Part shown: positions 160 to 9,734 of the stretch, piece after piece
Numbering within the stretch: the first letter of the stretch is position 1
Layout: each line of letters opens with the position of its first letter
From: Deltaproteobacteria bacterium
GTDB taxonomy: Bacteria; Myxococcota_A; UBA9160; SMWR01
Length of the DNA: 64,000 nt
Assembly: GCA_019310965.1 (NCBI GenBank)
Contig: JAFDDG010000007.1
Location: 62,240 to 126,239 of the forward strand
Direction of reading: 5' to 3'
Notes under the pieces: model-generated
The model's database searches: none
What the model saw: the letters and a program-made list of their open reading frames with translations, nothing else
What the model was told of the DNA's origin: nothing
Position numbers and translations under genes: made by a program

Positions 160-1581
160 GTGGAGACGCACGGCGTCGGCACCGTCGGCATCCTGGCGAA
201 CCCGATGGCGGGGCGCGACGTGCGCCGCCTGATCGGGCGCGCCCTGCAGCAGACGCCCGACATGAAACGCAATCAGATCCAACGCGCCGTAGTGGGTGCG
301 GTGGCGGCGGGTGCCCGACGCGTGCTGTTGATGCGCGACGTGTTTCGCGCGGCGGAGAGCGCGATCGAGAGCCTGCGACTGCACGCCGACGTTGCACTCC
401 TCGACGGACCGATCGAGACCAACGCCGGCGACACGAGGCGCAACGCCCTGGCGCTGCGCGATGCCGGCTGCGGTGCGCTGATCGTGCTCGGCGGCGATGG
501 CACCAACCGTCAGGTGGCGCTGGCCTGGCCCGACGCGCCATTGATCCCACTCTCGACGGGCACGAACAACGTATTCCCGGAGATGCTCGAAGCCACCAGT
601 GCCGGCGCCGCCGCGGGGCTCGTGGCGGCTGGCGCGGTGAGCATCGACGAGGTTTCGCGACGCTGCAAGGTGGTGGAAGTCGAGTATCCGAACTCCGAAA
701 CCGACCTGGCACTCGTCGATGTTGCGCTGCTGGAGGGAGATCACCCCGGCAGCCTGCTGGCCTTCGACCCGACGCAGCTGCGCGACCTGGTGCTCACCCG
801 CGCGGAGCCAGCCGCGGTGGGCATGTCACCGATCGGAGGCCTGCTGCAACCGGTGGGCCGCGACGATCCGGGGGGGATCACCGTGCGCTGCACGGCGCCA
901 GACGCCGGCGGCAGGCCGCTCCTGGTGCCGATCTCGCCGGGGCTCTATCGCACCGCCTACGTAGCCCACGTTGCGCCGCTGGAAGAGGGTGTCTGGACGC
1001 AGGTTTCCGGGCCCGGCGTGGTGGCCACCGATGGCGACCGCATGCGCATGCTCGGCCCGCGCGAAACGGCGCGGGCGCGCGTGATGCGCCGCGGCCCGCG
1101 GGTCATCGACGTGCCGCGCACGCTGACACTGGCCGCGAAGCGCGGGATCTTCCGAGAGCGCCCGCCCCACCTACCCTGCATCTGCTGCCTGAGCTGCTTT
1201 CGGGCCGCTTCCCGCCGGTGTTTCCCACGGACGGCGCGCAACGGCACAGCCTCGCCCGCCATCTGCGCGAGCGCCTCCCTCGAGACCCCTCGGGACGAGG
1301 AATCTCCTGCAACCATCAGGGCCCCGGCACACGCCGGGGAGACATCAGGCGAGGCGCGAGCGCGCAGCCTCGATATCGCCGTCCATGATCGTCTTGCGCT
1401 TGTTCTGATCGGCGGAGGCGGAGGCCTCCTGTGCCAGGCGCGCGACGTAGCCTTCGACTGCAGCGACCGCCAGCCCGAGAGCCGTACCCGATACGCGCAT
1501 GCCATTTCCATGCTTCGTGAGAAGCCGCTTGATCACTGCATTCGGAAGATCAGCCATGGGGTCCCTCCATCTATCTGGTGA
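160..1581 (+). CDS. ATP-NAD kinase / AcoX-like protein (3' end uncertain)
   Basis: GTG start 5 nt after the GST stop. Motifs GILANPMAGRD, LIVLGGDGTNRQV and PLSTGTNNVF match the NAD-kinase/AcoX family. Recognisable protein-like sequence fades near nt 1165. The remaining tail is Cys/Arg-rich and antisense to the histone-fold gene. Confidence 0.7.
   Translation: METHGVGTVGILANPMAGRDVRRLIGRALQQTPDMKRNQIQRAVVGAVAAGARRVLLMRDVFRAAESAIESLRLHADVALLDGPIETNAGDTRRNALALRDAGCGALIVLGGDGTNRQVALAWPDAPLIPLSTGTNNVFPEMLEATSAGAAAGLVAAGAVSIDEVSRRCKVVEVEYPNSETDLALVDVALLEGDHPGSLLAFDPTQLRDLVLTRAEPAAVGMSPIGGLLQPVGRDDPGGITVRCTAPDAGGRPLLVPISPGLYRTAYVAHVAPLEEGVWTQVSGPGVVATDGDRMRMLGPRETARARVMRRGPRVIDVPRTLTLAAKRGIFRERPPHLPCICCLSCFRAASRRCFPRTARNGTASPAICASASLETPRDEESPATIRAPAHAGETSGEARARSLDIAVHDRLALVLIGGGGGLLCQARDVAFDCSDRQPESRTRYAHAISMLREKPLDHCIRKISHGVPPSIW
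1345..1557 (-). CDS. Histone-fold protein (archaeal HMf-like bacterial histone)
   Basis: The 70-aa sequence MADLPNAVIKRLLTKHGNGMRVSGTALGLAVAAVEGYVARLAQEASASADQNKRKTIMDGDIEAARSRLA aligns by eye with archaeal HMfB (LP.A.I.R, RVS, RKTI, DIE.A). A strong SD (GGAGGGA) lies about 5 nt upstream of the ATG. Confidence 0.75.
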   Translation of the reverse strand: MADLPNAVIKRLLTKHGNGMRVSGTALGLAVAAVEGYVARLAQEASASADQNKRKTIMDGDIEAARSRLA

Positions 1582-1588
1582 CCGGATG

Positions 1589-2431
1589 CTAGGAGGGCAC
1601 GAGAGGCGCTGTCAATCGTTCTCTGCTGCGGTTACAAAACACTGTCTCATTTCGTCCGGGATGCGGTGGGCGTCCCACCAGAAAGCGGACCGCCGCTGCG
1701 GCCAGCGCCGGGCCGTCGAAATCCACCGGCACCACGTGCCCCGAGCCCGGGAGCAAGAGGTGCTGCTTCTCGGCGGAGGCCACTTTCTGGAGGATGGTCT
1801 CCGCGTCTCCGGGGTGGGCGGTCTCATCCCGCGCGCCGTGGGCGGCCAGCAGCGGCACGTGAATCTCCGTCAGCCGCGCGCGCACCACGCGCTGCAGCTT
1901 CTGCAGCTCGGCAACGGCGGCGAGCGGCATGACGGGCATGCCGGGGTGGCGTGCCCGCGCCTCGGGATCGCAGATGTCCGAGCCGTGGCGCTTCGGCAGC
2001 TCGCGGACCAGGTACTTCGCAAAGCGCGCCAGGGCGGCGCCGGGCTGGCGCAGCGCCAGGGGCACGCCGACGCAGACGACCGCGTCGAAGCCGCACTCGG
2101 CGGCGAGCAACAGCGTGACGAGGCCCCCCATCGAGAGCCCCACGCCAAACACGACGTCGTGATTTCCGTGCAGGCGAAGCACCTCGGCACGCGCAGCGTC
2201 CAGCCAGGCGGTGTAGGGCGTGCGACGCAAGGCGGCCGGCTCGCCGCCGTGACCCGGCAAGAGGGGGCCCACTGCCCGCACACCGGCGCGCGAGAGGGCC
2301 TCGCCGAGCGGGCGCACCTCGTAGGGGGTGCCGGTCAGGCCGTGGAGGCACAGCGCCGCCGCCCCCCCGTCACCCGGCAGGTCGAAGGCGTGGGAGTCGA
2401 ACGCGCGCTCAGCTCCCTCAGTCGAGCTCAC
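1589..2431 (-). CDS. Alpha/beta hydrolase (carboxylesterase / monoacylglycerol-lipase-like)
   Basis: LHGLTGTPYEVRPLG oxyanion region, GLSMGG nucleophile elbow and a C-terminal GSGHVV His motif. The start overlaps the larC stop by 14 nt. Confidence 0.8.
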   Translation of the reverse strand: MSSTEGAERAFDSHAFDLPGDGGAAALCLHGLTGTPYEVRPLGEALSRAGVRAVGPLLPGHGGEPAALRRTPYTAWLDAARAEVLRLHGNHDVVFGVGLSMGGLVTLLLAAECGFDAVVCVGVPLALRQPGAALARFAKYLVRELPKRHGSDICDPEARARHPGMPVMPLAAVAELQKLQRVVRARLTEIHVPLLAAHGARDETAHPGDAETILQKVASAEKQHLLLPGSGHVVPVDFDGPALAAAAVRFLVGRPPHPGRNETVFCNRSRERLTAPLVPS

Positions 2432-3656
2432 GCCCGGCTTCCTCGGCAGCCCGCACCACGTCGCGCAGCGCTGCGCCGGCCTTGCGGGCGGCTGCAGCGC
2501 AGTCGTCGTACTCGGCCGACACGCGCAGCTCGCCGTCGGGGGTCCAGATGCGTTTCACGCGCACCCGCCCGTAGGCCGTGGTGACGCGGGTCTCCTCCCG
2601 GCGCAGCACGACACGATCGCTCTCGGTCACCCGCACACCGATGGCCGTCGATTCGGCAAAGAGCAGGTTCGCGAGCGGCATGCGATCCGACGGCTTTGCC
2701 AGCACGCGGACCAGGAAGCCCGGACGATTCTTCTTCATCTGCAGGTGCTGCAGCGACACGTCGAGGGCGCCGGCCGCAAAGAGGCGCTCCATCAGATGGT
2801 CGAAGTGCTCGGGCACCAGATCGTCGAGGTTCGTCTCGAGCAGCACCACGCGGTCGGCGTGCGCGCCAGGGCCTCGGCCGAGAACAGCGCGCAGTACGTT
2901 GGGCATCGGTCCCTGTCGATCGTTTCCAGCGCCGTAGCCAATCGCCTCCACGGTCATGGCGGGCAGCGGGCCGAACTCCTCCACCAACGTGGCGACGATC
3001 GCGGCACCGGTCGGCGTCACCGTCTCCCATGCGACGTGCACTGGCACCACTGGGATGCCGCGCAACAGCTCGAGCGCTGCGGGCGGCGGAACCGGCAGGC
3101 GACCGTGGTCGGTCTCCACCGTGCCATTGCTGCCGACGCCGATCGCCGACGCCGTGACCCGCCGCACGTCGAGAAGTGCCAGCCCGGCCGCCGCACCGGT
3201 GACGTCGACGATGGCATCGACCGCGCCGACCTCGTGAAAGTGCACCTTCTCGACGGGCACACCGTGGATCCGGGCTTCCGCGCGGGCCAGGGACTCGAAG
3301 ATCAGGAGTGCCCGCTCGCGAATGCCGGCATCGAGCTTCGCCTTGCCCAGCAGCTTCACGATATCGCCGAAGTGCCGACCGTGGCCATGTACGTGGTGAT
3401 GCCCGTGGGAGCGCTTCGACGCCGCTCGTCGGGGCAACTTCACATCGACGAAGCGCGAGGCGATGGCGCCGCGCATCACGTTCTTCACGACCAGCTTGAA
3501 CTCGACCCCGAGACCGGCAAGCTCCGCATCGAGCGCCTTGCGCGAAAGCCCTGCGTCGAGCAGTGCACCCAGGAACATATTTCCAGCGATTCCGGAGAAA
3601 CAGTCCAGGTACAGAAGACGGCCGCCCTCGGTGGCCCTCTTTCGCCGGGGCGCCAA
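2418..3656 (-). CDS. larC: LarC, nickel-pincer cofactor nickel insertion protein (DUF111 family)
   Basis: N-terminal LLYLDCFSGIAGNMFLGALLDAG, His-rich stretch SHGHHHVHGHGRH, and HFHEVGAVDAIVDV. The ORF-track entry 2418-4424 is extended 5' by an Arg/Gly shadow. The best start is TTG at 3656, next to the larB stop; no ATG or GTG is available. Confidence 0.85.
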   Translation of the reverse strand: MAPRRKRATEGGRLLYLDCFSGIAGNMFLGALLDAGLSRKALDAELAGLGVEFKLVVKNVMRGAIASRFVDVKLPRRAASKRSHGHHHVHGHGRHFGDIVKLLGKAKLDAGIRERALLIFESLARAEARIHGVPVEKVHFHEVGAVDAIVDVTGAAAGLALLDVRRVTASAIGVGSNGTVETDHGRLPVPPPAALELLRGIPVVPVHVAWETVTPTGAAIVATLVEEFGPLPAMTVEAIGYGAGNDRQGPMPNVLRAVLGRGPGAHADRVVLLETNLDDLVPEHFDHLMERLFAAGALDVSLQHLQMKKNRPGFLVRVLAKPSDRMPLANLLFAESTAIGVRVTESDRVVLRREETRVTTAYGRVRVKRIWTPDGELRVSAEYDDCAAAARKAGAALRDVVRAAEEAGRELD

Positions 3657-3658
3657 GA

Positions 3659-4408
3659 TCAGAGCCGATTGATCAGCGTCGCCACGTAGGCTGCGCCGAA
3701 GCCATTGTCGATGTTCACCGTGGTGACGTTCGAAGCACAGCTCGTCAGCATGCCCAGCAACGCCGCGACGCCGCCAAACGCGGCGCCATAGCCAACGCTG
3801 GTCGGCACGGCGATGACGGGCTTGTCGACGAGGCCACCCACCACCGAAGGCAACGCGCCCTCCATTCCCGCCACCACGATCAGCACCCGGGCCGAGCGCA
3901 ACACCTGGCTCGAAGCCAGCAGTCGGTGGAGGCCCGCCACTCCGACATCCACCAGCAGCTCGACCTTGTTGCCGAAGCGGCTGGCAACGCCAACGGCTTC
4001 GGCAGCGACGGGCAGATCCGAGGTCCCGGCACACACGACGGCGATGCTGCCCTTGCCCGTGTTCGGCACCTCGGCCGGGCCGAACCAGAGAAGGCGGCCG
4101 GCGGCATCGTACTCGCCGAAGCCGAGGGAGGCCAGCACCTGATCCGCCACCTCTGATTCCACGCGGGTGGCCAACACCGACTGTTCCGCGGCGCGCAGGG
4201 CGCCCACGATCTCCTCGATCTGCGCGACGGTCTTGCCCGGGGCGTAGATCACCTCCGGCAGACCCGTGCGCAGGGCCCGGTGCGTATCCACCCGCGCGCC
4301 GGGCACATCGGCAAAGGGCAGGCTCGCCAAGCGCTCGAGCGCCTCGTCCAGCTCGATCTCGCCTGCGCGCACCCCCACGAGCATCTCTCGGATCCCGTCG
4401 CGGTTCAT
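3659..4408 (-). CDS. larB: LarB, pyridinium-3,5-biscarboxylic acid mononucleotide synthase (AIR-carboxylase-like)
   Basis: Full-length 249-aa ORF with VDTHRALRTGLPEVIYAPGKT, SIAVVCAGTSDLPVAAEA and VVAGMEGALPSVVGGL, typical of LarB. Confidence 0.9.
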   Translation of the reverse strand: MNRDGIREMLVGVRAGEIELDEALERLASLPFADVPGARVDTHRALRTGLPEVIYAPGKTVAQIEEIVGALRAAEQSVLATRVESEVADQVLASLGFGEYDAAGRLLWFGPAEVPNTGKGSIAVVCAGTSDLPVAAEAVGVASRFGNKVELLVDVGVAGLHRLLASSQVLRSARVLIVVAGMEGALPSVVGGLVDKPVIAVPTSVGYGAAFGGVAALLGMLTSCASNVTTVNIDNGFGAAYVATLINRL

Positions 4409-4433
4409 GCGCGCACGGTATCAAAAGTGGGCT

Positions 4434-4949
4434 TCAGAGCGACTCCACCGCAAGCACCAGCACCACGTCGGGCGTCTCGCCGGCGGCCCAGAGCTCGGTG
4501 GCGGTCACGACCACGTCCACACGCCGCGCCAGCAGCCGATCGATCAGGCTGCCTGCGTCTTCTCGCACGAGGGTCGGCACCGATAGGGTGACCCGAGTGC
4601 CGAGCCGATCCGCCACCGCCGAGACCGAGTGCGATGCGACGATGTTGCCGGCCTCGCGCAGCGCCGAGTCGGCCAGCAACTCGGCATCCAGAGCCTCGAG
4701 CACGGTCGCTCGCCCGACGCCCGATAGCAGCAGCGCGACGACGCCGCGGACGGCCCCGTCCACCTCGAACACGATGCCGGTGTCGAGCTTGCCCGCACCC
4801 GCGGAGATCGAGCCCTCCCACATGAGCACGTCGGCGACTCTCATCGGCTCTCCACAGAGCCGGCCGAAGGCCGCGGCGGCGGCCGCGGCGCTCTCCTGCG
4901 CCAGCGCGCGCACCCGCGTGTCCTGTGTATCCGCCTTCGATCGCGTCAT
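4434..4949 (-). CDS. CheC/CheX/FliY-family CheY-P phosphatase
   Basis: SALREAGN followed by exactly 22 residues then P gives an exact match to the family motif D/S-x3-E-x2-N-x22-P in the C-terminal half. The N-terminal copy is degenerate. The ATG overlaps the cheA stop (ATGA). Confidence 0.7.
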   Translation of the reverse strand: MTRSKADTQDTRVRALAQESAAAAAAAFGRLCGEPMRVADVLMWEGSISAGAGKLDTGIVFEVDGAVRGVVALLLSGVGRATVLEALDAELLADSALREAGNIVASHSVSAVADRLGTRVTLSVPTLVREDAGSLIDRLLARRVDVVVTATELWAAGETPDVVLVLAVESL

Positions 4950-6172
4950 AGCAGGTGATTCGGCTCCAACACGAAGACCGGGCGCCCGTCACCAAGGATC
5001 GTGAGACCGGCGAGTACCTTGACCGAGGCCAGCAGCTCGGGAACCGGTTTCACGTAGATCTGCTGCTGTCCGAGCACCCGCCGGACGCATACGCCCAACA
5101 TCTCGCCACGCACTTCGGTGAGCACCAGCGTGACGACTCTGTCCGCAACGACCTCCGGCAATCGCAGGCACTGGGCAAGCGAGAGCACCGGTACGGGTTC
5201 ATCGTCGACCAGCGCAAAGGCCTCGCTGCCACTGGTTTCGACGGCTTCCGCCTGCAGCTCGACGATGCGCTCCACCCGCGCGATCGGCAGGGCCACGCAC
5301 TCGCCCTCGACCTCGAGCAGCAGGACGCGCTGCACCGCCGCGGTGATCGGAACGGTGAGAGTCGTGGTGGTGCCCTGCCCCGCGTGGGTCACCACTTCGA
5401 CACTGCCGCCCAGGGAATCGAGCGTCGCGCGCACCGCATCCATGCCGACACCGCGCCCGGAGATTTCGGACACCGTTTTGGCGGTGGAGAGCCCCGGGTG
5501 GAAGACGAAGGCGGCGAGCTGCTCCGCTGCCAGGTCTTCAGCAATGCCCGGATGCACCAGACCGGCCTCCACCGCGCGCTCGCGCACCGCCTCGAGATCC
5601 ATACCGGCACCATCGTCGCGAACCGCGATGCGAATCGTGTCGTTCTCGCGCCGCGCGTCGATCACCACGCGCCCTGCCTCCGGCTTGCCGGCCGCCAGCC
5701 GAGCGGCGGGCTCCTCGATACCGTGGTCGACCGCGTTGCGCACCAGGTGCACCAACGGATCACTCAGCCGGTCGAGAATCGAGCGATCGAGTTCGAGGTC
5801 GCCACCCCGCAGCTCCACCTCGACACGTTTGTCGAGCCGCTGTGCCACGTCGCGGGCCATACGCGGCAGGGGCTCTACGATGCGCAACAACGGAGTCGTG
5901 CGCAGCTCGAGCGCACGGCGCTGCAGCTCTCCCACCACGCGATCCATGCGGTCCAGGCCGGCCGCGTGATTGCCGGCATCACCCGACTCCGCGGCGGTGC
6001 GCACCTGGCTCGAGTTCAGGATGACCTCGCCAACCGTCGAGAGGAAACGGTCGAGGGTCTCGGTCGAGACGCGAACCGAAGGGGGCGGTCGCGGGGCATC
6101 GACATTGGCGGAGCGGGGTGAGGCCGCCGCGGGGGCGGCGGCCTCAGGCCTTTTTTTCCGCGCCCTCCCCAT
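4946..6172 (-). CDS. cheA: CheA histidine kinase core (dimerisation, HATPase and CheW-like P5 domains), separated from its HPt domain by a frame change
   Basis: LDRFLSTVGEVILN, DPLVHLVRNAVDHGIE (N box), DDGAGMD (G1), GRGVGMDAV (G2) and a C-terminal CheW-like domain. The listed ATG at 6172 has no visible SD. Confidence 0.85.
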   Translation of the reverse strand: MGRARKKRPEAAAPAAASPRSANVDAPRPPPSVRVSTETLDRFLSTVGEVILNSSQVRTAAESGDAGNHAAGLDRMDRVVGELQRRALELRTTPLLRIVEPLPRMARDVAQRLDKRVEVELRGGDLELDRSILDRLSDPLVHLVRNAVDHGIEEPAARLAAGKPEAGRVVIDARRENDTIRIAVRDDGAGMDLEAVRERAVEAGLVHPGIAEDLAAEQLAAFVFHPGLSTAKTVSEISGRGVGMDAVRATLDSLGGSVEVVTHAGQGTTTTLTVPITAAVQRVLLLEVEGECVALPIARVERIVELQAEAVETSGSEAFALVDDEPVPVLSLAQCLRLPEVVADRVVTLVLTEVRGEMLGVCVRRVLGQQQIYVKPVPELLASVKVLAGLTILGDGRPVFVLEPNHLL

Positions 6173-6548
6173 CGGGCGGATCGACCAGGGCCGCAGCAGC
6201 GGGGTTCAGCTGCAACGCATGCGCCGGGGCCTCACCGGTCTCGCGCACGCTGGCCACCATGCTCTCCAGCATCTCGAGCCCGCGAAACAGCAGCGCCATG
6301 CCCGCCACATCGACGGCGACACCAGCGCTGCGCACTTCCTGCATGTGGTCTTCGAGACGGTGTGCCACCTGGGTGATCGCGTCGTACTCGAGCGAAGCCG
6401 CCATGCCCTTGATCGAGTGCGCCATGCGAAACAGGAGGTCGATGGATTCGGCGCGAGCCGCATCCTTCTCGAGCTCGAGCAGCGCCCGGCTCATCTCCGC
6501 GAGATGCTCCGTGGCCTCCTCGAGGAAGACGTCCCGATACTTGGACAT
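6144..6548 (-). CDS. cheA: CheA HPt (P1) domain ORF
   Basis: MSKYRDVFLEEATEHLAEMSRALLELE...LFRMAHSIKGMAASL carries the HSIKG phospho-His motif. It ends GAEKKA-TGA inside an A7 tract (T7 at 6151-6157 on the plus strand). Confidence 0.8.
   Translation of the reverse strand: MSKYRDVFLEEATEHLAEMSRALLELEKDAARAESIDLLFRMAHSIKGMAASLEYDAITQVAHRLEDHMQEVRSAGVAVDVAGMALLFRGLEMLESMVASVRETGEAPAHALQLNPAAAALVDPPDGEGAEKKA
6151..6157. repeat. A7/T7 homopolymer at the cheA frame break
   Basis: The plus strand reads ggcc-ttttttt-ccg. Removing one A restores a single CheA reading frame. Confidence 0.95.
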
Positions 6549-6556
6549 ATCCAAGG

Positions 6557-6928
6557 CTACTGGCCGCCCTTCTCCAAGGCCCTGGCGAGGGTCTCGACCA
6601 CGGTATCGGGCTTGAAGGGCTTCACGATGAAGTCCGTGGCACCGGCCTCCATGGCCTCCGTCACCAGTGACTCCTGTCCGAGCGCGCTGCACATCACGAC
6701 GGCCACGGTGGTGTCCAGCTCGCGAATGCCCTTCACGGCATCGATGCCCGAGCACCGCGGCATCACGATGTCCATCGTCACCAGATCCGGGTGGTGCTCC
6801 TTGAAGCAAGCCACCGCCTCGACGCCATCCGACGCCTCGGCCACTACCTCGTGCCCTTCCGCTTCGATGATCTCGCGAATCATCTGCCGCATGAAGGACG
6901 CATCGTCTGCAACCAGGATTCGAGCCAT
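6557..6928 (-). CDS. cheY: CheY-like single-domain response regulator
   Basis: MARILVADDASFMRQ..., phospho-acceptor context LVTMDIVMP, and conserved KPF. 123 aa. Confidence 0.9.
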   Translation of the reverse strand: MARILVADDASFMRQMIREIIEAEGHEVVAEASDGVEAVACFKEHHPDLVTMDIVMPRCSGIDAVKGIRELDTTVAVVMCSALGQESLVTEAMEAGATDFIVKPFKPDTVVETLARALEKGGQ

Positions 6929-6947
6929 AACTCTCCCCTTCTCTGGG

Positions 6948-7412
6948 TCATTCGCTCCATTCGAGCGAGGCTTCGATCGCCTCCGCGGCGCGGGCAACCA
7001 GTCTCTCCGCGTCCAGGACGAACACCAGGCGGCCGTCAATCGACCGCCTCTCCGCAACGGGTCCCGCGCCCACCGAGCGAGCACCGTCGCCAACCACCAG
7101 CCCCTCGATGCGATCGGCACACAGGCCGAGCTTCGCGCCACCATTGGGGCGCGGGGCCAGAACGAGCACATGGCTCGGCTCCGGCAGCTCCTGCGCATCG
7201 AGATCGAGCAGCGTCTCGCGCCGCATCACCGGCAGTGCGTCGCCGTGAAAGTTGAGCACGCCAGCCAGCTCTAGCGGCAGCATCGGGATGCAGGCCAATG
7301 CGCTGGCTTCGGCCACCTCGACGACGCACGCGATGGGCAGCGCATAGAGACTACCCGCCACCTCGAAAGTGAGCAGCCGCTCTTCGGCAGCGACGGCCGC
7401 GGGGGCGCTCAC
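6948..7412 (-). CDS. cheW: CheW coupling protein
   Basis: [21 protein letters not shown]...[12 protein letters not shown] is CheW-like. The GTG start overlaps the MCP stop (GTGA). Confidence 0.85.
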
Positions 7413-8689
7413 GACGCGGCCCGGCCGTCGACGTCTCCGGTCTCGAAGCGACGTAGGACCTCGGCCAGCTGCTCGGCCAGCTCGGTCACCGTCTCGGAGC
7501 AACCCTCCATTTCCTGAGTGGAGACGATCTGCCGCTGCGAGGTGTTCACGACGCCCTCGATGGCAACGCCGTTGGTCTCGGCAGCGCGGGAGACCTCGTC
7601 CATGGCACCGACCATGCGCTCGATGTCCTGGGTCTGCGAGTCGGCGCCCAGGAAGATCTCTTCGGCGCGGGTGGCCGCCTCCCCCACCGCGGAACGAATG
7701 TGCTCGAGCGAGTGCGCGATGGTGTCGATGTCCTCGCGGCCCTCCCGCACACCGAGGCTCGACTCGCGCATCTCGTCCGCCACCTCGTGGGTGTCGGTCT
7801 CGATCTCCGAGATGAGCTTGGCGATCTCTTCCGCGCTCTCGCCGGCGCTCTCGGCCAGCTTGCGGATCTCCTCCGCCACCACCGCAAAGCCTCGACCGGC
7901 CTCACCGGCTCGCGCCGCCTCGATCGAGGCGTTGAGCGAGAGGAGGTTCGTCCGCTGCGCCACGCTGGTGATGAACGAGGTGATCTGGTTGACGTGCCGC
8001 GTCTTCGCTTCGAGATCGAAGACCCGCGCAACGCTCTGTTCGACCCCCTCGAAGACCATGCGCATCTTCTCGATGGCCAGGCGGGCGACGTCGACGCCGG
8101 AATTTGCCTTCTGATTTGCCTCGGCAGCAAATCCGAACGCCTCGCGGGCGCGATCGGAGTTGCGCTCGATGGTCGATGCGATCTCCCGAATCGCCGTGTT
8201 CGCGTCGTGCAGCAGCTTCTGCTGCTCGATGACACTGCGCGCGAGCTCGGAGACGGTGGCGGAGATCTCTTCGTTGCCGGTGCTCACCTGTCCGGTCGAA
8301 CGCATCAGCTCACCGGCCGCCTGGGACACGCGATCGCTGGTGGTCTGCACGTGCTCCACCAGAGCGCGCAGGCCGGCGACCATGCCTTCGATGCTGTGCA
8401 CCAGCGAATCGATCTCGTCCGGAAATTGCGACACGCGCTCGATGGCGACAGGCTTCGACAAATCGCCGCGCGCGATCGCGTCCGTGACTCCGTGCAAGCG
8501 CTGGAACGTGCGCGTCAACTGACGTGAAAAGAAGTAGCCGAGCGCGCCGCCCACGAAGAGCGCCACAAAGGGCGTCGCCCAGGGCGCCACGGCCACGCCC
8601 GCTCTTCCGAGCAGCAACGGAAAGCCGACCACAGCGGCGCCCACGACACACGCGCCCACCACGAATTTATGGGTCAGAGATACCCGCAT
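7409..8689 (-). CDS. Methyl-accepting chemotaxis protein, two TM helices with no periplasmic sensor domain, plus HAMP and signalling domains
   Basis: The ATG at 8689 gives [14 protein letters not shown]... Two hydrophobic helices are joined by a roughly 10-aa loop. A HAMP domain follows, then the highly conserved hairpin [35 protein letters not shown]. The track ORF 7409-9127 is 5'-extended shadow. Confidence 0.9.
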
Positions 8690-8795
8690 CCATTGAGGTA
8701 TCGGTGAAAGGCTGTGTGGCCTTGAAGCACCGCTGGTGCAGAAACCACAAACGAACCGGCAACTTGGAGGCAAATGACCCGCAGCCAGAGGGCCC

Positions 8796-9734
8796 CTAGG
8801 CCCGGAAATGGCTCCAGCCCGCCGCCTTCCGGCGCGGGGCCCGGCCCGCCGCCACGTGACCGATGCAGGTGACCGACACAGCCAGCCGCCGGGACAGCGC
8901 GGCTTCCGAGAGGGCGCCGGGCCGCAGCGTGAAGAGCAGCTCGTAGTCTTCACCGCCACCGCGGGCCAGGGCTTCCGGGTCGAGCCCGAGCCGCGCACAC
9001 GCCGCGCGAAAGCCCCGCACCACGGGCAACCGCTCGACGTCGAGGTGCGGCCGGAGCGGCCGGCCGCCAAAGAGCTGCGCGAGATCGGCATCCAGGCCAT
9101 CCGACACGTCGATGCATGCGCCCACACCTCGCATGCGCGCCAGCGCGCGGCCCGCCGCGAGACGCGGCTCGGCTACGAAGCGCACCCGCCCTCCCCGCTC
9201 AGCTCGCGAGCGATCCAGCGCGGCGGCACCCAGCACGCCGGTGACATAGATCCCGTCTCCCGCCCGCGCCCCGCGGCGCGTCAGCGCGCACCCGCGCTTC
9301 ACCGCGCCCAGCACCGTGAGCGTCAGCGACACTTCCCGGGCCGCGCTGCAGTTGCCGCCCACCAACGGACAGCCGTGGAGCTCCGCCTCGTCGAGCAACC
9401 CGCGCAACAACCCGTCCACGACACGCACATCGAGTCGAGGCGGCGCGGCCAGGGCCCACAAGAACCCCAAGGGCCGCGCTCCCATCGCCGCCAGATCCGA
9501 GAGGTTCGCCACCAGAGCCCGCCGCCCCACCGACCGCGCACTCTCGTTGCCGAACCGGAAGTGCACCCCCTCGACCATCGCATCCGTGGAGGCGACGATG
9601 TCCTCACCCGTGCGCGGCCGCAACACCGCAGCGTCGTCCCCGATCCCGAGCGCCACCGCACCCGCCGGCCGCCGCCCCGCCGCGCGCCGAATCCGCTCGA
9701 TCAACCCAAATTCCCCAAGCTCCCGCAACTCCAC
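8796..9734 (-). CDS. thiL: Thiamine-monophosphate kinase
   Basis: [40 protein letters not shown] and a C-terminal [10 protein letters not shown]. Confidence 0.85.

What the first reader, a model, noticed from the sequence alone, without database searches (positions are those of the whole stretch)
1345..1557. Histone-fold (HMf-like) protein at the tail of a bacterial gene run
The 70-aa ORF shows the landmark residues of archaeal histones in the right order and spacing for a single histone fold: LP.A.I.R..., RVS, RKTI and DIE.A. It has a strong Shine-Dalgarno sequence. Bacterial histones have only recently been characterised (Bdellovibrio, Leptospira) and can bind DNA unconventionally. A homologue in a GC-rich LPS-producing bacterium, placed after larBC and an esterase, is worth structural and abundance analysis.
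Basis: partly seen in the sequence, partly recalled or inferred. Interest (0 to 1): 0.6.

Follow-up and report, generated by a model that had tools for sequence, protein, structure and literature searches.

The report
Archaeal-style histone in uncultured myxobacteria
This is a real gene for a small histone protein in an uncultured myxobacterial lineage; it has the full-length shape of archaeal histones, unlike the shortened histones studied so far in bacteria, but it lacks the residues those archaeal histones use to stack into nucleosome-like coils.

Summary
Window 1345-1557 (minus strand) encodes a 70-aa basic protein that passes Pfam's thresholds for Histone and CBFD_NFYB_HMF. AlphaFold2 models it at pLDDT 94.7 as a canonical helix-loop-helix-loop-helix histone fold.

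It belongs to a tight family of about 70-aa proteins found in at least 128 species-level genomes. All 80 that were listed are uncultured Myxococcota or "Deltaproteobacteria" MAGs, including the UBA9160 and UBA6930 MAGs of GTDB Myxococcota_A.

The gene has its own conserved sigma-70-type promoter (54 of 80 loci, against 0-1 of 80 in control windows), a GGAGGG ribosome-binding site and a hairpin after the stop. It sits at the end of a conserved che-larB-larC block but does not depend on that block.

The architecture is HMf-like: alpha2 is 28 residues and alpha3 is 11. It is not the alpha3-truncated type of the two characterised bacterial histones, HBb and HLp. All HMfB DNA-contact residues are invariant. 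The three four-helix-bundle positions are Ser, Ala and Ala, as in dimer-only HBb.

Most likely it is a homodimeric, non-specific DNA-bending nucleoid protein. The family is already catalogued: GenBank annotates it, and one member is in a 2023 supplementary table. It has not been analysed. I rate it a new variant of a known kind, of moderate interest.

The parts
1345..1557 (-). Histone-fold gene. 70 aa, pI 9.8, 7.3 kDa. The stop codon is at 1345-1347.
   Evidence: ORF. Pfam Histone and CBFD_NFYB_HMF both above cut-off. AF2 pLDDT 94.7 with helices at 6-16, 24-51 and 59-69. 127 homologues. Codon-position substitution pattern. pI and mass.
1563..1568 (-). Shine-Dalgarno sequence GGAGGG, five bases upstream of the ATG.
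   Evidence: Read directly. GGAGG-like motifs sit at the same place in most related loci (sequences printed).
1586..1615 (-). Sigma-70-type promoter: TTGACA (1615-1610), 18-nt spacer, TAGCAT (1591-1586). The -10 element overlaps the stop codon of the hydrolase gene.
   Evidence: It is the only promoter-like site in window 1000-2600 and matches 10 of 12 positions; shuffles give 0.0 +/- 0.2 sites. A match of at least 9 of 12 occurs within 140 nt upstream of the histone start in 54 of 80 related loci, against 0-1 of 80 in control windows 300-3000 nt further upstream.
1322..1339 (-). G+C-rich hairpin CCCCGGC-GTGT-GCCGGGG starting 6 nt after the stop codon. It looks like a terminator but has no T-run.
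   Evidence: Sequence and RNAfold. Many related loci have strong hairpins after the stop, some followed by T-runs. Overall the folding energy is only slightly below shuffled controls (-24.7 vs -21.6 kcal/mol), so this part is plausible, not proven. The simple terminator scan found none.
1589..2431 (-). Alpha/beta-hydrolase (esterase-like) gene directly upstream. It is a context gene and is present at this position in only 31 of 80 related loci.
   Evidence: Pfam Abhydrolase_1 and Hydrolase_4. No specific NCBIfam family reaches its cut-off. Synteny count.
2418..3578 (-). larC, the nickel-pincer cofactor nickel insertase. It is a context gene, upstream of the histone in 77 of 80 loci.
   Evidence: Pfam Ni_insertion 439 bits. 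NCBIfam LarC1 198.8 bits (cut-off 90) and LarC2 138.7 bits (cut-off 50). Synteny. Gene limits from the public gene call.
3659..4408 (-). larB, a nickel-pincer cofactor biosynthesis gene. It is a context gene.
   Evidence: NCBIfam LarB equivalog 278.5 bits, cut-off 175. Present in 73 of 80 loci.
160..1170 (+). Convergent NAD-kinase/DAG-kinase-like gene. In this window a 52-nt deletion between 1167 and 1168 removes its 3' end and stop codon, so the ORF reads through to 1581, antisense across the histone gene.
   Evidence: Pfam NAD_kinase and DAGK_cat. Alignment with an otherwise identical public contig, in which the gene stops 188 nt from the histone stop. Codon-position G+C looks coding only up to about 1170.

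Best explanation
The ORF is a genuine, separately transcribed gene for a single-histone-fold protein. It belongs to a family conserved in an uncultured Myxococcota lineage whose members include the UBA9160 and UBA6930 MAGs (GTDB Myxococcota_A, class UBA9160).

Shown:
- It has a canonical full-length histone fold of archaeal HMf dimensions.
- The residues HMfB uses to hold DNA are invariant in the family. These are the alpha1 N-terminal K10/R11, the L1 'sprocket' arginine R21, the L2 R54-K55-T56 motif and the R54-D61 clamp.
- It has its own conserved strong promoter and ribosome-binding site.

Inferred:
- Like all histone folds, it forms a homodimer.
- The dimer binds roughly 30 bp of DNA without sequence specificity through its L1-L2 and alpha1-alpha1 sites.
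- It is an abundant nucleoid-associated protein.
- The three positions that build the HMfB four-helix bundle (L46, H49, L62) are Ser48, Ala/Gln51 and Ala64 here. The first two match wild-type HBb, which had to be mutated at these positions before it could wrap DNA. So this protein most likely works as separate dimers that bend and compact DNA, and does not polymerise into hypernucleosomes.
- Its constant position after larC reflects inherited gene order, not a shared function.
For: Fold:
- Pfam hits are above cut-off.
- The AF2 model has pLDDT 94.7, with alpha2 of 28 residues and alpha3 of 11.
- Foldseek's best hits are full-length histone folds, including archaeal HPhA.

Architecture:
- The family HMM aligns to HMfB and a Methanocella histone with no alpha2 gap. 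HBb and HTkC each need a four-residue alpha2 deletion.
- hhalign against an HMf-type set gives probability 99.7%, E 2.7e-25 and 74 aligned columns. Against the HBb family it gives 87.6%, E 3.5e-6 and 51 columns.

Residues:
- K10, R11, R21, R54, K55, T56 and D61 are invariant in 119 sequences.
- Position 48 is Ser in 98 of 119. Positions 51 and 64 vary and include charged residues.
- Hocher et al. report that HBb gains wrapping only after A48H, S45F and I61L (PMC10627809).

Transcription unit:
- Promoter, Shine-Dalgarno sequence, hairpin.

Independence from lar:
- UBA6930-type relatives carry the histone between an AIRS-domain gene and lexA, with no che-lar block.
- The hydrolase lies between larC and the histone in only 31 of 80 loci.
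- Two loci have only fragmentary lar matches but an intact histone.

Charge: pI 9.8, family median 9.3.
Against: - 'Dimer only' therefore rests on three sequence positions and an analogy with HBb.
- Small residues (Ser, Ala) could in principle still allow tight helix packing.
- DNA binding, abundance and nucleoid localisation are untested, and the organisms are uncultured.
- The gene's third-position G+C (0.72) is lower than that of its neighbours (0.83-0.90). This is unexplained. It could reflect foreign origin or expression-linked codon choice.
- Gene order with larC is kept in 77 of 80 loci while the downstream side is not conserved. A functional link is therefore not strictly excluded.
Confidence: 0.65

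Rival explanations
1. It is a wrapping histone. Dimers associate through the C-terminal part of alpha2 and the full-length alpha3, using small-residue packing or a new interface, and wrap DNA in tetramers or hypernucleosome-like polymers as HMfB does. This would make it the first bacterial histone of the nucleosomal type.
For: - Alpha2 and alpha3 are full length, the geometry needed for a four-helix bundle.
- The complete HMfB DNA-contact set is present, including the sprocket arginine that other bacterial histones lack.
- The nearest named relatives outside the bacterial families are archaeal nucleosomal-type histones from Methanocella and Methanobrevibacter.
- A65 and R66 in alpha3 are nearly invariant.
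Against: - The bundle positions are Ser48 and variable residues at 51 and 64, including Lys, Arg and Glu.
- The histidine equivalent to H49 is absent, as in HBb.
- The score against NCBIfam's archaea_histone model is below its cut-off, 36.6 against 50.
Confidence: 0.2
2. It is not a general chromatin protein. Instead it is a histone-fold adaptor or a specific regulator, in the manner of NF-Y or TAF proteins, and is functionally tied to the neighbouring chemotaxis and nickel-pincer-cofactor (larBC) genes.
For: - It sits directly downstream of larC, on the same strand, in 77 of 80 loci, while the downstream gene is not conserved.
- GenBank names it 'NFYB/HAP3 family transcription factor subunit'.
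- NF-YB/NF-YC are the top Foldseek hits.
Against: - It has its own conserved promoter.
- The histone is retained where the che-lar block is absent or where only fragmentary lar matches remain.
- No second histone-fold partner gene or NF-YA-like gene lies nearby: no paralogue was found in the window.
- It lacks the extra C-terminal helix of NF-YB/C, being 70 aa against target chains of 80-98 residues.
- The invariant residues are the DNA-backbone contacts of HMfB.
- The GenBank name simply echoes the Pfam family name.
Confidence: 0.1
3. It is not a real bacterial gene. It could be a chance ORF lying antisense to the long 473-aa ORF (160-1581, plus strand), or archaeal or eukaryotic contamination of a metagenome bin.
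For: - In this window a 473-aa plus-strand ORF runs right across it.
- Its third-position G+C is lower than that of its neighbours.
Against: - The read-through ORF is produced by a 52-nt deletion. In an otherwise identical public contig the convergent gene stops 188 nt away from the histone stop.
- The plus-strand frame loses coding-like composition after about 1170.
- The histone frame shows a third-position excess of substitutions.
- The gene lies in conserved bacterial synteny in 80 loci, on contigs up to 5.8 Mb.
Confidence: 0.01

Closest known systems
Archaeal HMf-type (nucleosomal) histones: HMfA/HMfB of Methanothermus fervidus, HPhA of Pyrococcus horikoshii, Methanocella histones
   Same: - Length is about 70 aa with no tails.
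- Alpha2 (28 residues) and alpha3 (11 residues) are full length.
- The N-terminal LPxAxxxR motif, the RVS motif with the sprocket arginine, RKT in L2 and the R-D clamp are all present.
- It aligns end to end with a single one-residue gap.
- HPhA is a top structural match, TM 0.89.
   Different: - The host is a bacterium.
- The tetramerisation residues L46, H49 and L62 are replaced by Ser, Ala/Gln and Ala.
- There is a one-residue insertion (K15) and a near-invariant His16 at the end of alpha1.
- Met58 is invariant where HMfB has Lys56.
- It scores below the NCBIfam archaea_histone cut-off.
- Identity to HPhA is about 32%.
HBb (Bd0055) of Bdellovibrio bacteriovorus, the 'bacterial dimer' class of alpha3 histones
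   Same: - It is bacterial, basic and has a single fold.
- It has an RKT(V/I)M L2 motif.
- It has Ser and Ala at the two alpha2 positions that are Leu/Phe and His in wrapping archaeal histones.
- It probably works in the same way, as a dimer that bends DNA (inference).
   Different: - HBb has an alpha2 four residues shorter and a one-turn alpha3 (PMC10627809). This family has neither feature.
- HBb lacks the sprocket arginine. Here R21 is invariant.
- HBb-family proteins mostly have no precomputed Pfam hit, whereas nearly all members of this family hit two histone Pfams.
HLp of Leptospira perolatii and HTkC, the face-to-face (FtF) alpha3 histones
   Same: It has the histone fold and the RxTxxxxD motif. 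Asn at position 52 is present in 69 of 119 members.
   Different: - FtF tetramers need the truncated alpha3 and an Arg six residues before the RxT arginine. Here that position is Ser48 and alpha3 is full length.
- The family HMM scores only 9.5 bits against a Leptospira FtF histone and 11.5 bits against HTkC.
72-aa histones of Acidobacteriota / Vicinamibacterales MAGs (uncharacterised)
   Same: This is the closest relative outside the family: 78 bits and a gapless alignment over residues 1-67. It is also full length, bacterial and lacks the H49 histidine.
   Different: It comes from a different phylum. It has Leu at the position equivalent to HMfB L46. Its genomic context was not examined.
NF-YB / NF-YC (HAP3 / HAP5) eukaryotic transcription-factor subunits, the name given by GenBank
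   Same: It has the histone fold, matches Pfam CBFD_NFYB_HMF and NF-YB/C are the top Foldseek hits.
   Different: It has no extra C-terminal helix, no heterodimer partner and no NF-YA-like gene nearby. Identity is 26-29%. The name is an annotation carry-over from the Pfam family title.

Membership tests
Histone-fold superfamily (Pfam PF00125 Histone / PF00808 CBFD_NFYB_HMF) | Significant profile match above the curated gathering score | tested here: met
   43.3 bits against 26.4, and 38.2 bits against 21.4.
Histone-fold superfamily (Pfam PF00125 Histone / PF00808 CBFD_NFYB_HMF) | Helix-loop-helix-loop-helix fold with a long central helix | tested here: met
   AF2 model at pLDDT 94.7 with H6-16, H24-51 and H59-69. 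Foldseek TM 0.84-0.91 to solved histone folds.
Archaeal nucleosomal (HMf-type) histones | Full-length alpha2 and an alpha3 of about 10 residues | tested here: met
   Alpha2 is 28 residues and alpha3 is 11. There is no alpha2 gap against HMfB or the Methanocella histone.
Archaeal nucleosomal (HMf-type) histones | DNA-contact residues R10, R19, K53 and T54, and the R52-D59 clamp | tested here: met
   R11 (with K10), R21, K55, T56, R54 and D61 are invariant in 119 sequences.
Archaeal nucleosomal (HMf-type) histones | Four-helix-bundle tetramerisation residues (L46, H49, L62) | tested here: not met
   Ser48 in 98 of 119. Position 51 is Ala 61, Gln 17, Lys 11, Glu 10. Position 64 is Ala 67, Lys 22, Arg 11, Ser 10.
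Archaeal nucleosomal (HMf-type) histones | Forms the (hyper)nucleosomal tetramer, the criterion of Schwab et al. 2024 | not testable with these tools
Archaeal nucleosomal (HMf-type) histones | NCBIfam NF043032 archaea_histone score above cut-off | tested here: not met
   36.6 bits against a cut-off of 50.
Alpha3-truncated histones (bacterial dimer / HBb type) | Alpha3 of only 3-4 residues and an alpha2 4-5 residues shorter than in nucleosomal histones (PMC11390915) | tested here: not met
   Alpha3 is 11 residues and alpha2 is 28. HBb aligns only with a four-residue deletion and without alpha3.
Alpha3-truncated histones (bacterial dimer / HBb type) | Sequence clustering with HBb, which is how the category was defined | tested here: inconclusive
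   The family HMM scores HBb 21.5 bits, about the same as HMfB at 22.5. hhalign to the HBb family gives probability 87.6%. Schwab et al. list bacterial dimers in Myxococcota_A, but their accession table could not be cross-referenced to this family.
Face-to-face (FtF) histones (HLp, HTkC) | Conserved Arg and Asn (FtF HMM positions R48 and N52) that make the dimer-dimer contacts, plus a truncated alpha3 | tested here: not met
   Position 48 is Ser. N52 is present in only 69 of 119. Alpha3 is full length. Scores are 9.5-11.5 bits.
NF-YB/HAP3 transcription-factor subunits (GenBank name) | Heterodimer partner (NF-YC type), NF-YA partner and an extra alphaC helix | tested here: not met
   The protein is 70 aa and ends with alpha3. 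There is no paralogue in the window and no second histone-fold gene in the annotated neighbourhoods.

The most novel reading that the evidence does not exclude
An entire uncultured bacterial class (Myxococcota_A, UBA9160), and a related Acidobacteriota group, package DNA with a histone of archaeal nucleosomal architecture. On this reading the protein oligomerises through its intact alpha2-alpha3 end despite lacking the canonical His and Leu residues, and wraps DNA. Alternatively, it is the evolutionary intermediate between archaeal nucleosomal histones and the shortened bacterial HBb-type histones. [quoted passage not shown]
Probability: 0.15. Interest if true: 0.75.

Novelty: new variant of a known kind. 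Interest (0 to 1): 0.45.

Why it matters
Only two bacterial histones have been characterised: HBb, a bending dimer, and HLp, a wrapping face-to-face tetramer. Both belong to the alpha3-truncated type.

Recent surveys state that nucleosomal-type histones occur only in archaea (PMC11390915). [quoted passage not shown]

This family is a counter-example in architecture. It is full-length and HMf-like, it has every archaeal DNA-contact residue, and it is conserved with its own strong promoter across at least 128 species-level genomes of an uncultured myxobacterial lineage.

It would be a natural test case for which features decide between bending and wrapping: helix length or the four-helix-bundle residues. 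It also bears on how histones moved between archaea and bacteria. The protein is small and easy to make recombinantly, even though its hosts are uncultured.

Tried and rejected
- Multimer modelling.
- Published classification. The supplements of Schwab et al. hold accession-to-category tables but no taxon names or GenBank accessions. How they classed this family remains unknown.
- Alva & Lupas 2019 is not held in the library.
- A database search with HBb returned only close HBb relatives, the few that are named being Bdellovibrio-like or unclassified bacteria. It did not show whether Myxococcota_A also has HBb-type histones.
- Viral origin is rejected. There is one remote 36%-identity match in 2.9 million viral contigs and no meaningful PHROG hit.
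- Spurious antisense ORF is rejected.
- Functional coupling to larBC or the esterase was considered and judged unlikely.
- A search for HU/IHF in the window and loci found nothing. This is uninformative, because only small parts of the genomes are held.
- The terminator hairpin is plausible, but its folding energy is not clearly better than shuffled sequence in this G+C-rich DNA.
Full report
**The observation.** Window 1345-1557 holds, on the minus strand, a 70-codon ORF (ATG at 1557, TGA at 1347-1345). It encodes MADLPNAVIKRLLTKHGNGMRVSGTALGLAVAAVEGYVARLAQEASASADQNKRKTIMDGDIEAARSRLA. GGAGGG lies five bases before the ATG. The genes upstream on the same strand are an alpha/beta hydrolase, larC and larB, the last two confirmed by NCBIfam equivalog models above their cut-offs. 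The window is 68.8% G+C.

**It is a histone fold.** Pfam Histone scores 43.3 bits (gathering score 26.4, E 5e-11) and CBFD_NFYB_HMF scores 38.2 bits (21.4). NCBIfam's archaea_histone model scores 36.6 bits, below its cut-off of 50. An AlphaFold2 model built on 119 homologues has mean pLDDT 94.7, with helices at residues 6-16, 24-51 and 59-69. Foldseek against the PDB returns only histone folds. NF-YB/NF-YC, the archaeal histone HPhA (TM 0.89, rmsd 1.2 A over 65 residues), H2B, H3 and an Asgard histone all have TM 0.8-0.9.

**It is a real, conserved gene.**
- A search of 5.8 billion proteins found 127 homologues at 59-94% identity. Those aligned are all 70-74 aa and nearly all carry both histone Pfams.
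- In the species-representative genome collection, 128 stretches encode a relative. The 80 kept are all MAGs labelled Myxococcota, Myxococcales or Deltaproteobacteria, apart from some evidently mislabelled bins. Contigs reach 5.8 Mb.
- They include the UBA9160 and UBA6930 MAGs. UBA9160 is a class of the GTDB phylum Myxococcota_A and UBA6930 is a family within it (bioRxiv 10.64898/2026.07.10.737566).
- Across the 80 loci, differences from the window per site at codon positions 1, 2 and 3 are 0.24, 0.19 and 0.53.
- In this window a 473-aa plus-strand ORF (160-1581) runs antisense across the gene. That is an accident. An otherwise identical public contig carries 52 extra bases between window positions 1167 and 1168, and these hold the true end and stop codon of the convergent NAD-kinase-like gene, 188 nt from the histone stop. 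The plus-strand frame also loses coding-like composition after about 1170.

**What kind of histone.** The literature recognises two types.
- *Archaeal nucleosomal histones (HMfB).* These have an alpha3 of about 10 residues and a four-helix-bundle interface.
- *Alpha3 histones.* These have an alpha3 of 3-4 residues and an alpha2 that is 4-5 residues shorter. They include the bacterial dimer HBb and the face-to-face tetramers HLp and HTkC.

[quoted passage not shown] Hocher et al. call the shorter alpha2 diagnostic of bacterial singlet histones and note that the sprocket arginine R19 and the histidine H49 are not conserved in them (PMC10627809).

This family does not fit the bacterial pattern:
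- Alpha2 is 28 residues and alpha3 is 11.
- The family HMM aligns to HMfB and to a Methanocella histone with only a one-residue gap at the end of alpha1. HBb and HTkC need a four-residue deletion in alpha2 and do not align over alpha3.
- Profile-profile comparison gives probability 99.7%, E 2.7e-25 and 74 columns against a set of HMf-type singlets. Against the HBb family it gives 87.6%, E 3.5e-6 and 51 columns. There is a caveat: the HMf-type set was picked from sequences that had matched this family, and the HBb set has little diversity.
- Family-HMM bit scores are listed below.

| Sequence scored with the family HMM | Bits |
|---|---|
| 72-aa Acidobacteriota histone | 78 |
| Methanocella histone | 47 |
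| HMfB | 22.5 |
| HBb | 21.5 |
| HTkC | 11.5 |
| 63-aa alpha3-type histone of Myxococcales UBA727 | 10.3 |
| Leptospira face-to-face histone | 9.5 |

- In the exhaustive representative search, the hits after the family itself are full-length singlets. The ones that carry names are Acidobacteriota/Vicinamibacterales MAGs, Methanocella and Methanobrevibacter.

**Residues and likely mechanism.** In 119 sequences the invariant columns include:
- K10 and R11, where R11 is equivalent to HMfB R10;
- R21, equivalent to the sprocket arginine R19;
- R54, K55 and T56, equivalent to R52, K53 and T54;
- D61, equivalent to D59 of the R-D clamp.

The whole HMfB DNA-contact set is thus under strict constraint. 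That is the main argument that the protein binds DNA as histones do.

By contrast, the bundle positions L46, H49 and L62 correspond to three weaker positions here. Position 48 is Ser in 98 of 119. Position 51 is Ala 61, Gln 17, Lys 11, Glu 10. Position 64 is Ala 67, Lys 22, Arg 11, Ser 10. By the hhalign register these are the positions S45, A48 and I61 of HBb. Hocher et al. had to change those to Phe, His and Leu before HBb could bring DNA ends together.

I therefore infer a homodimer of HMf size with a complete DNA-binding ridge but no conserved dimer-dimer interface. It would be a bending and compacting nucleoid protein and not a hypernucleosome former. The protein is basic, with pI 9.8 and a family median of 9.3. 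This step is inference, because no oligomer model or experiment was possible.

**Transcription unit.** The only sigma-70-like site in 1000-2600 is TTGACA-18 nt-TAGCAT at 1615-1586 on the histone strand. It ends 28 nt before the ATG, and shuffles give 0.0 +/- 0.2 sites. A match of at least 9 of 12 occurs in the 140 nt upstream of the histone start in 54 of 80 related loci. In control windows 300-3000 nt further upstream it occurs in 0-1 of 80. A seven-pair G+C hairpin follows the stop (1339-1322). Comparable hairpins are common in the relatives but are not clearly beyond what G+C-rich sequence gives. The gene is therefore its own transcription unit, with signals suited to strong constitutive expression. 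Expression itself is untested.

**Context.** Matches to the neighbouring genes were counted in the 80 related loci.

| Neighbouring gene | Loci with a match (of 80) |
|---|---|
| larC | 77 |
| larB | 73 |
| cheA | 66 |
| cheC-like | 55 |
| hydrolase, between larC and the histone | 31 |
| downstream NAD-kinase-like gene | 2 |

In the loci with larC, the larC match lies directly upstream of the histone on the same strand. In the window's contig the order is AIRS-domain gene, MCP, cheW, response regulator, Hpt, cheA, cheC, larB, larC, hydrolase, histone. In UBA6930-type relatives the histone follows the AIRS-domain gene directly and is followed by lexA, folE and rpoD. The che-lar block is therefore an insertion or deletion between two older neighbours. 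Two loci have only fragmentary lar matches next to an intact histone. The association with larBC and the esterase is best read as inherited gene order.

**What was already known.**
- The exact protein is GenBank MBW2267727.1, 'NFYB/HAP3 family transcription factor subunit'. Relatives are named 'histone-like protein' or 'histone H3/H4'.
- The UBA6930 member is in Supplementary Table 1 of Hocher et al. 2023 as a 70-aa entry. It is absent from their singlet alignment, which excluded proteins over 65 aa.
- Schwab et al. list face-to-face histones in Myxococcota and bacterial dimers in Myxococcota_A. I could not determine whether the latter are this family.
- The December 2025 overview still shows only archaeal nucleosomal, face-to-face, bacterial dimer and DUF1931 clusters.
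- The family is therefore catalogued and annotated. Its distinct architecture has not been described in the papers I could read.

**Verdict.** It is a bacterial histone of an architectural variant not represented by HBb or HLp. It is full-length and HMf-like with the complete DNA-contact set, and HBb-like at the tetramerisation positions. It is not viral, not contamination, and not functionally tied to its neighbours. Interest is moderate. It qualifies two published generalisations and offers a clean test of what separates bending from wrapping. However, bacterial histones as such are known, and the mechanism here is inferred from sequence.

Noticed in passing
window 1167/1168 (plus-strand gene 160-~1170): Relative to an otherwise identical public contig (JGI Ga0366820_1000054), the window lacks 52 nt. 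These bases hold the 3' end and stop codon of the convergent NAD-kinase/DAG-kinase-like gene. The loss creates a 473-aa read-through ORF (160-1581) that runs antisense across the histone gene. It is either a strain variant or an assembly artefact.
   Followed up: yes
window 2418-9734 (minus strand); L081: A chemotaxis-type cluster (MCP, CheW, response regulator, Hpt, CheA, CheC-like) is directly followed by larB and larC, the nickel-pincer cofactor genes. This order is kept in most of the 80 related loci. No larE or larA was looked for. Why che and lar genes travel together is unexplained.
   Followed up: partly
L083-L085 (UBA6930-type relatives), histone at 6001-6213: In this sub-lineage the histone lies between an AIRS-domain gene and lexA-folE-rpoD, with no che-lar block. 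The same AIRS-domain gene lies upstream of the che-lar block in the window's contig. The block therefore behaves as one insertion or deletion.
   Followed up: partly
L073 and L075, upstream of histone at 6001: Only fragmentary matches to LarB, LarC and the hydrolase remain (32-159 aa pieces in L073; LarC 144 aa in L075), while the histone gene is intact. The lar genes may be decaying there.
   Followed up: no
P0135 cluster (72 aa; contigs up to 5.4 Mb): A related full-length histone family occurs in Acidobacteriota / Vicinamibacterales MAGs. It scores 78 bits against the family HMM in a gapless alignment. It also lacks the H49 histidine but keeps a Leu at the L46-equivalent position. Its context and distribution were not examined.
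   Followed up: partly
window 1345-1557 versus neighbouring genes: The histone gene has third-position G+C of 0.72, against 0.83-0.90 for surrounding genes. It makes notable use of GCT, GAT and AAT codons. The cause could be foreign origin or expression-linked codon choice. This is unexplained.
   Followed up: no
L041 and L078 (both from MAG SOY_38_metabat_69): One MAG carries two contigs, each with cheA-cheC-larB-larC-histone. One has the hydrolase and one does not, and the histones are 69% and 58% identical to the query. This is either a mixed bin of two related populations or a true duplication of the whole block.
   Followed up: no
(database annotation): Nearly all members of this family carry precomputed Pfam PF00808 and PF00125 hits. 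Most close HBb (Bd0055) relatives carry none. Domain-based surveys therefore see the two bacterial histone types very unequally.
   Followed up: no
L086 (IMG/VR UViG_2860317346_000001, 3001-3180): A single 175-kb viral contig encodes a distant (36% identity) histone-fold relative. It was not examined further.
   Followed up: no
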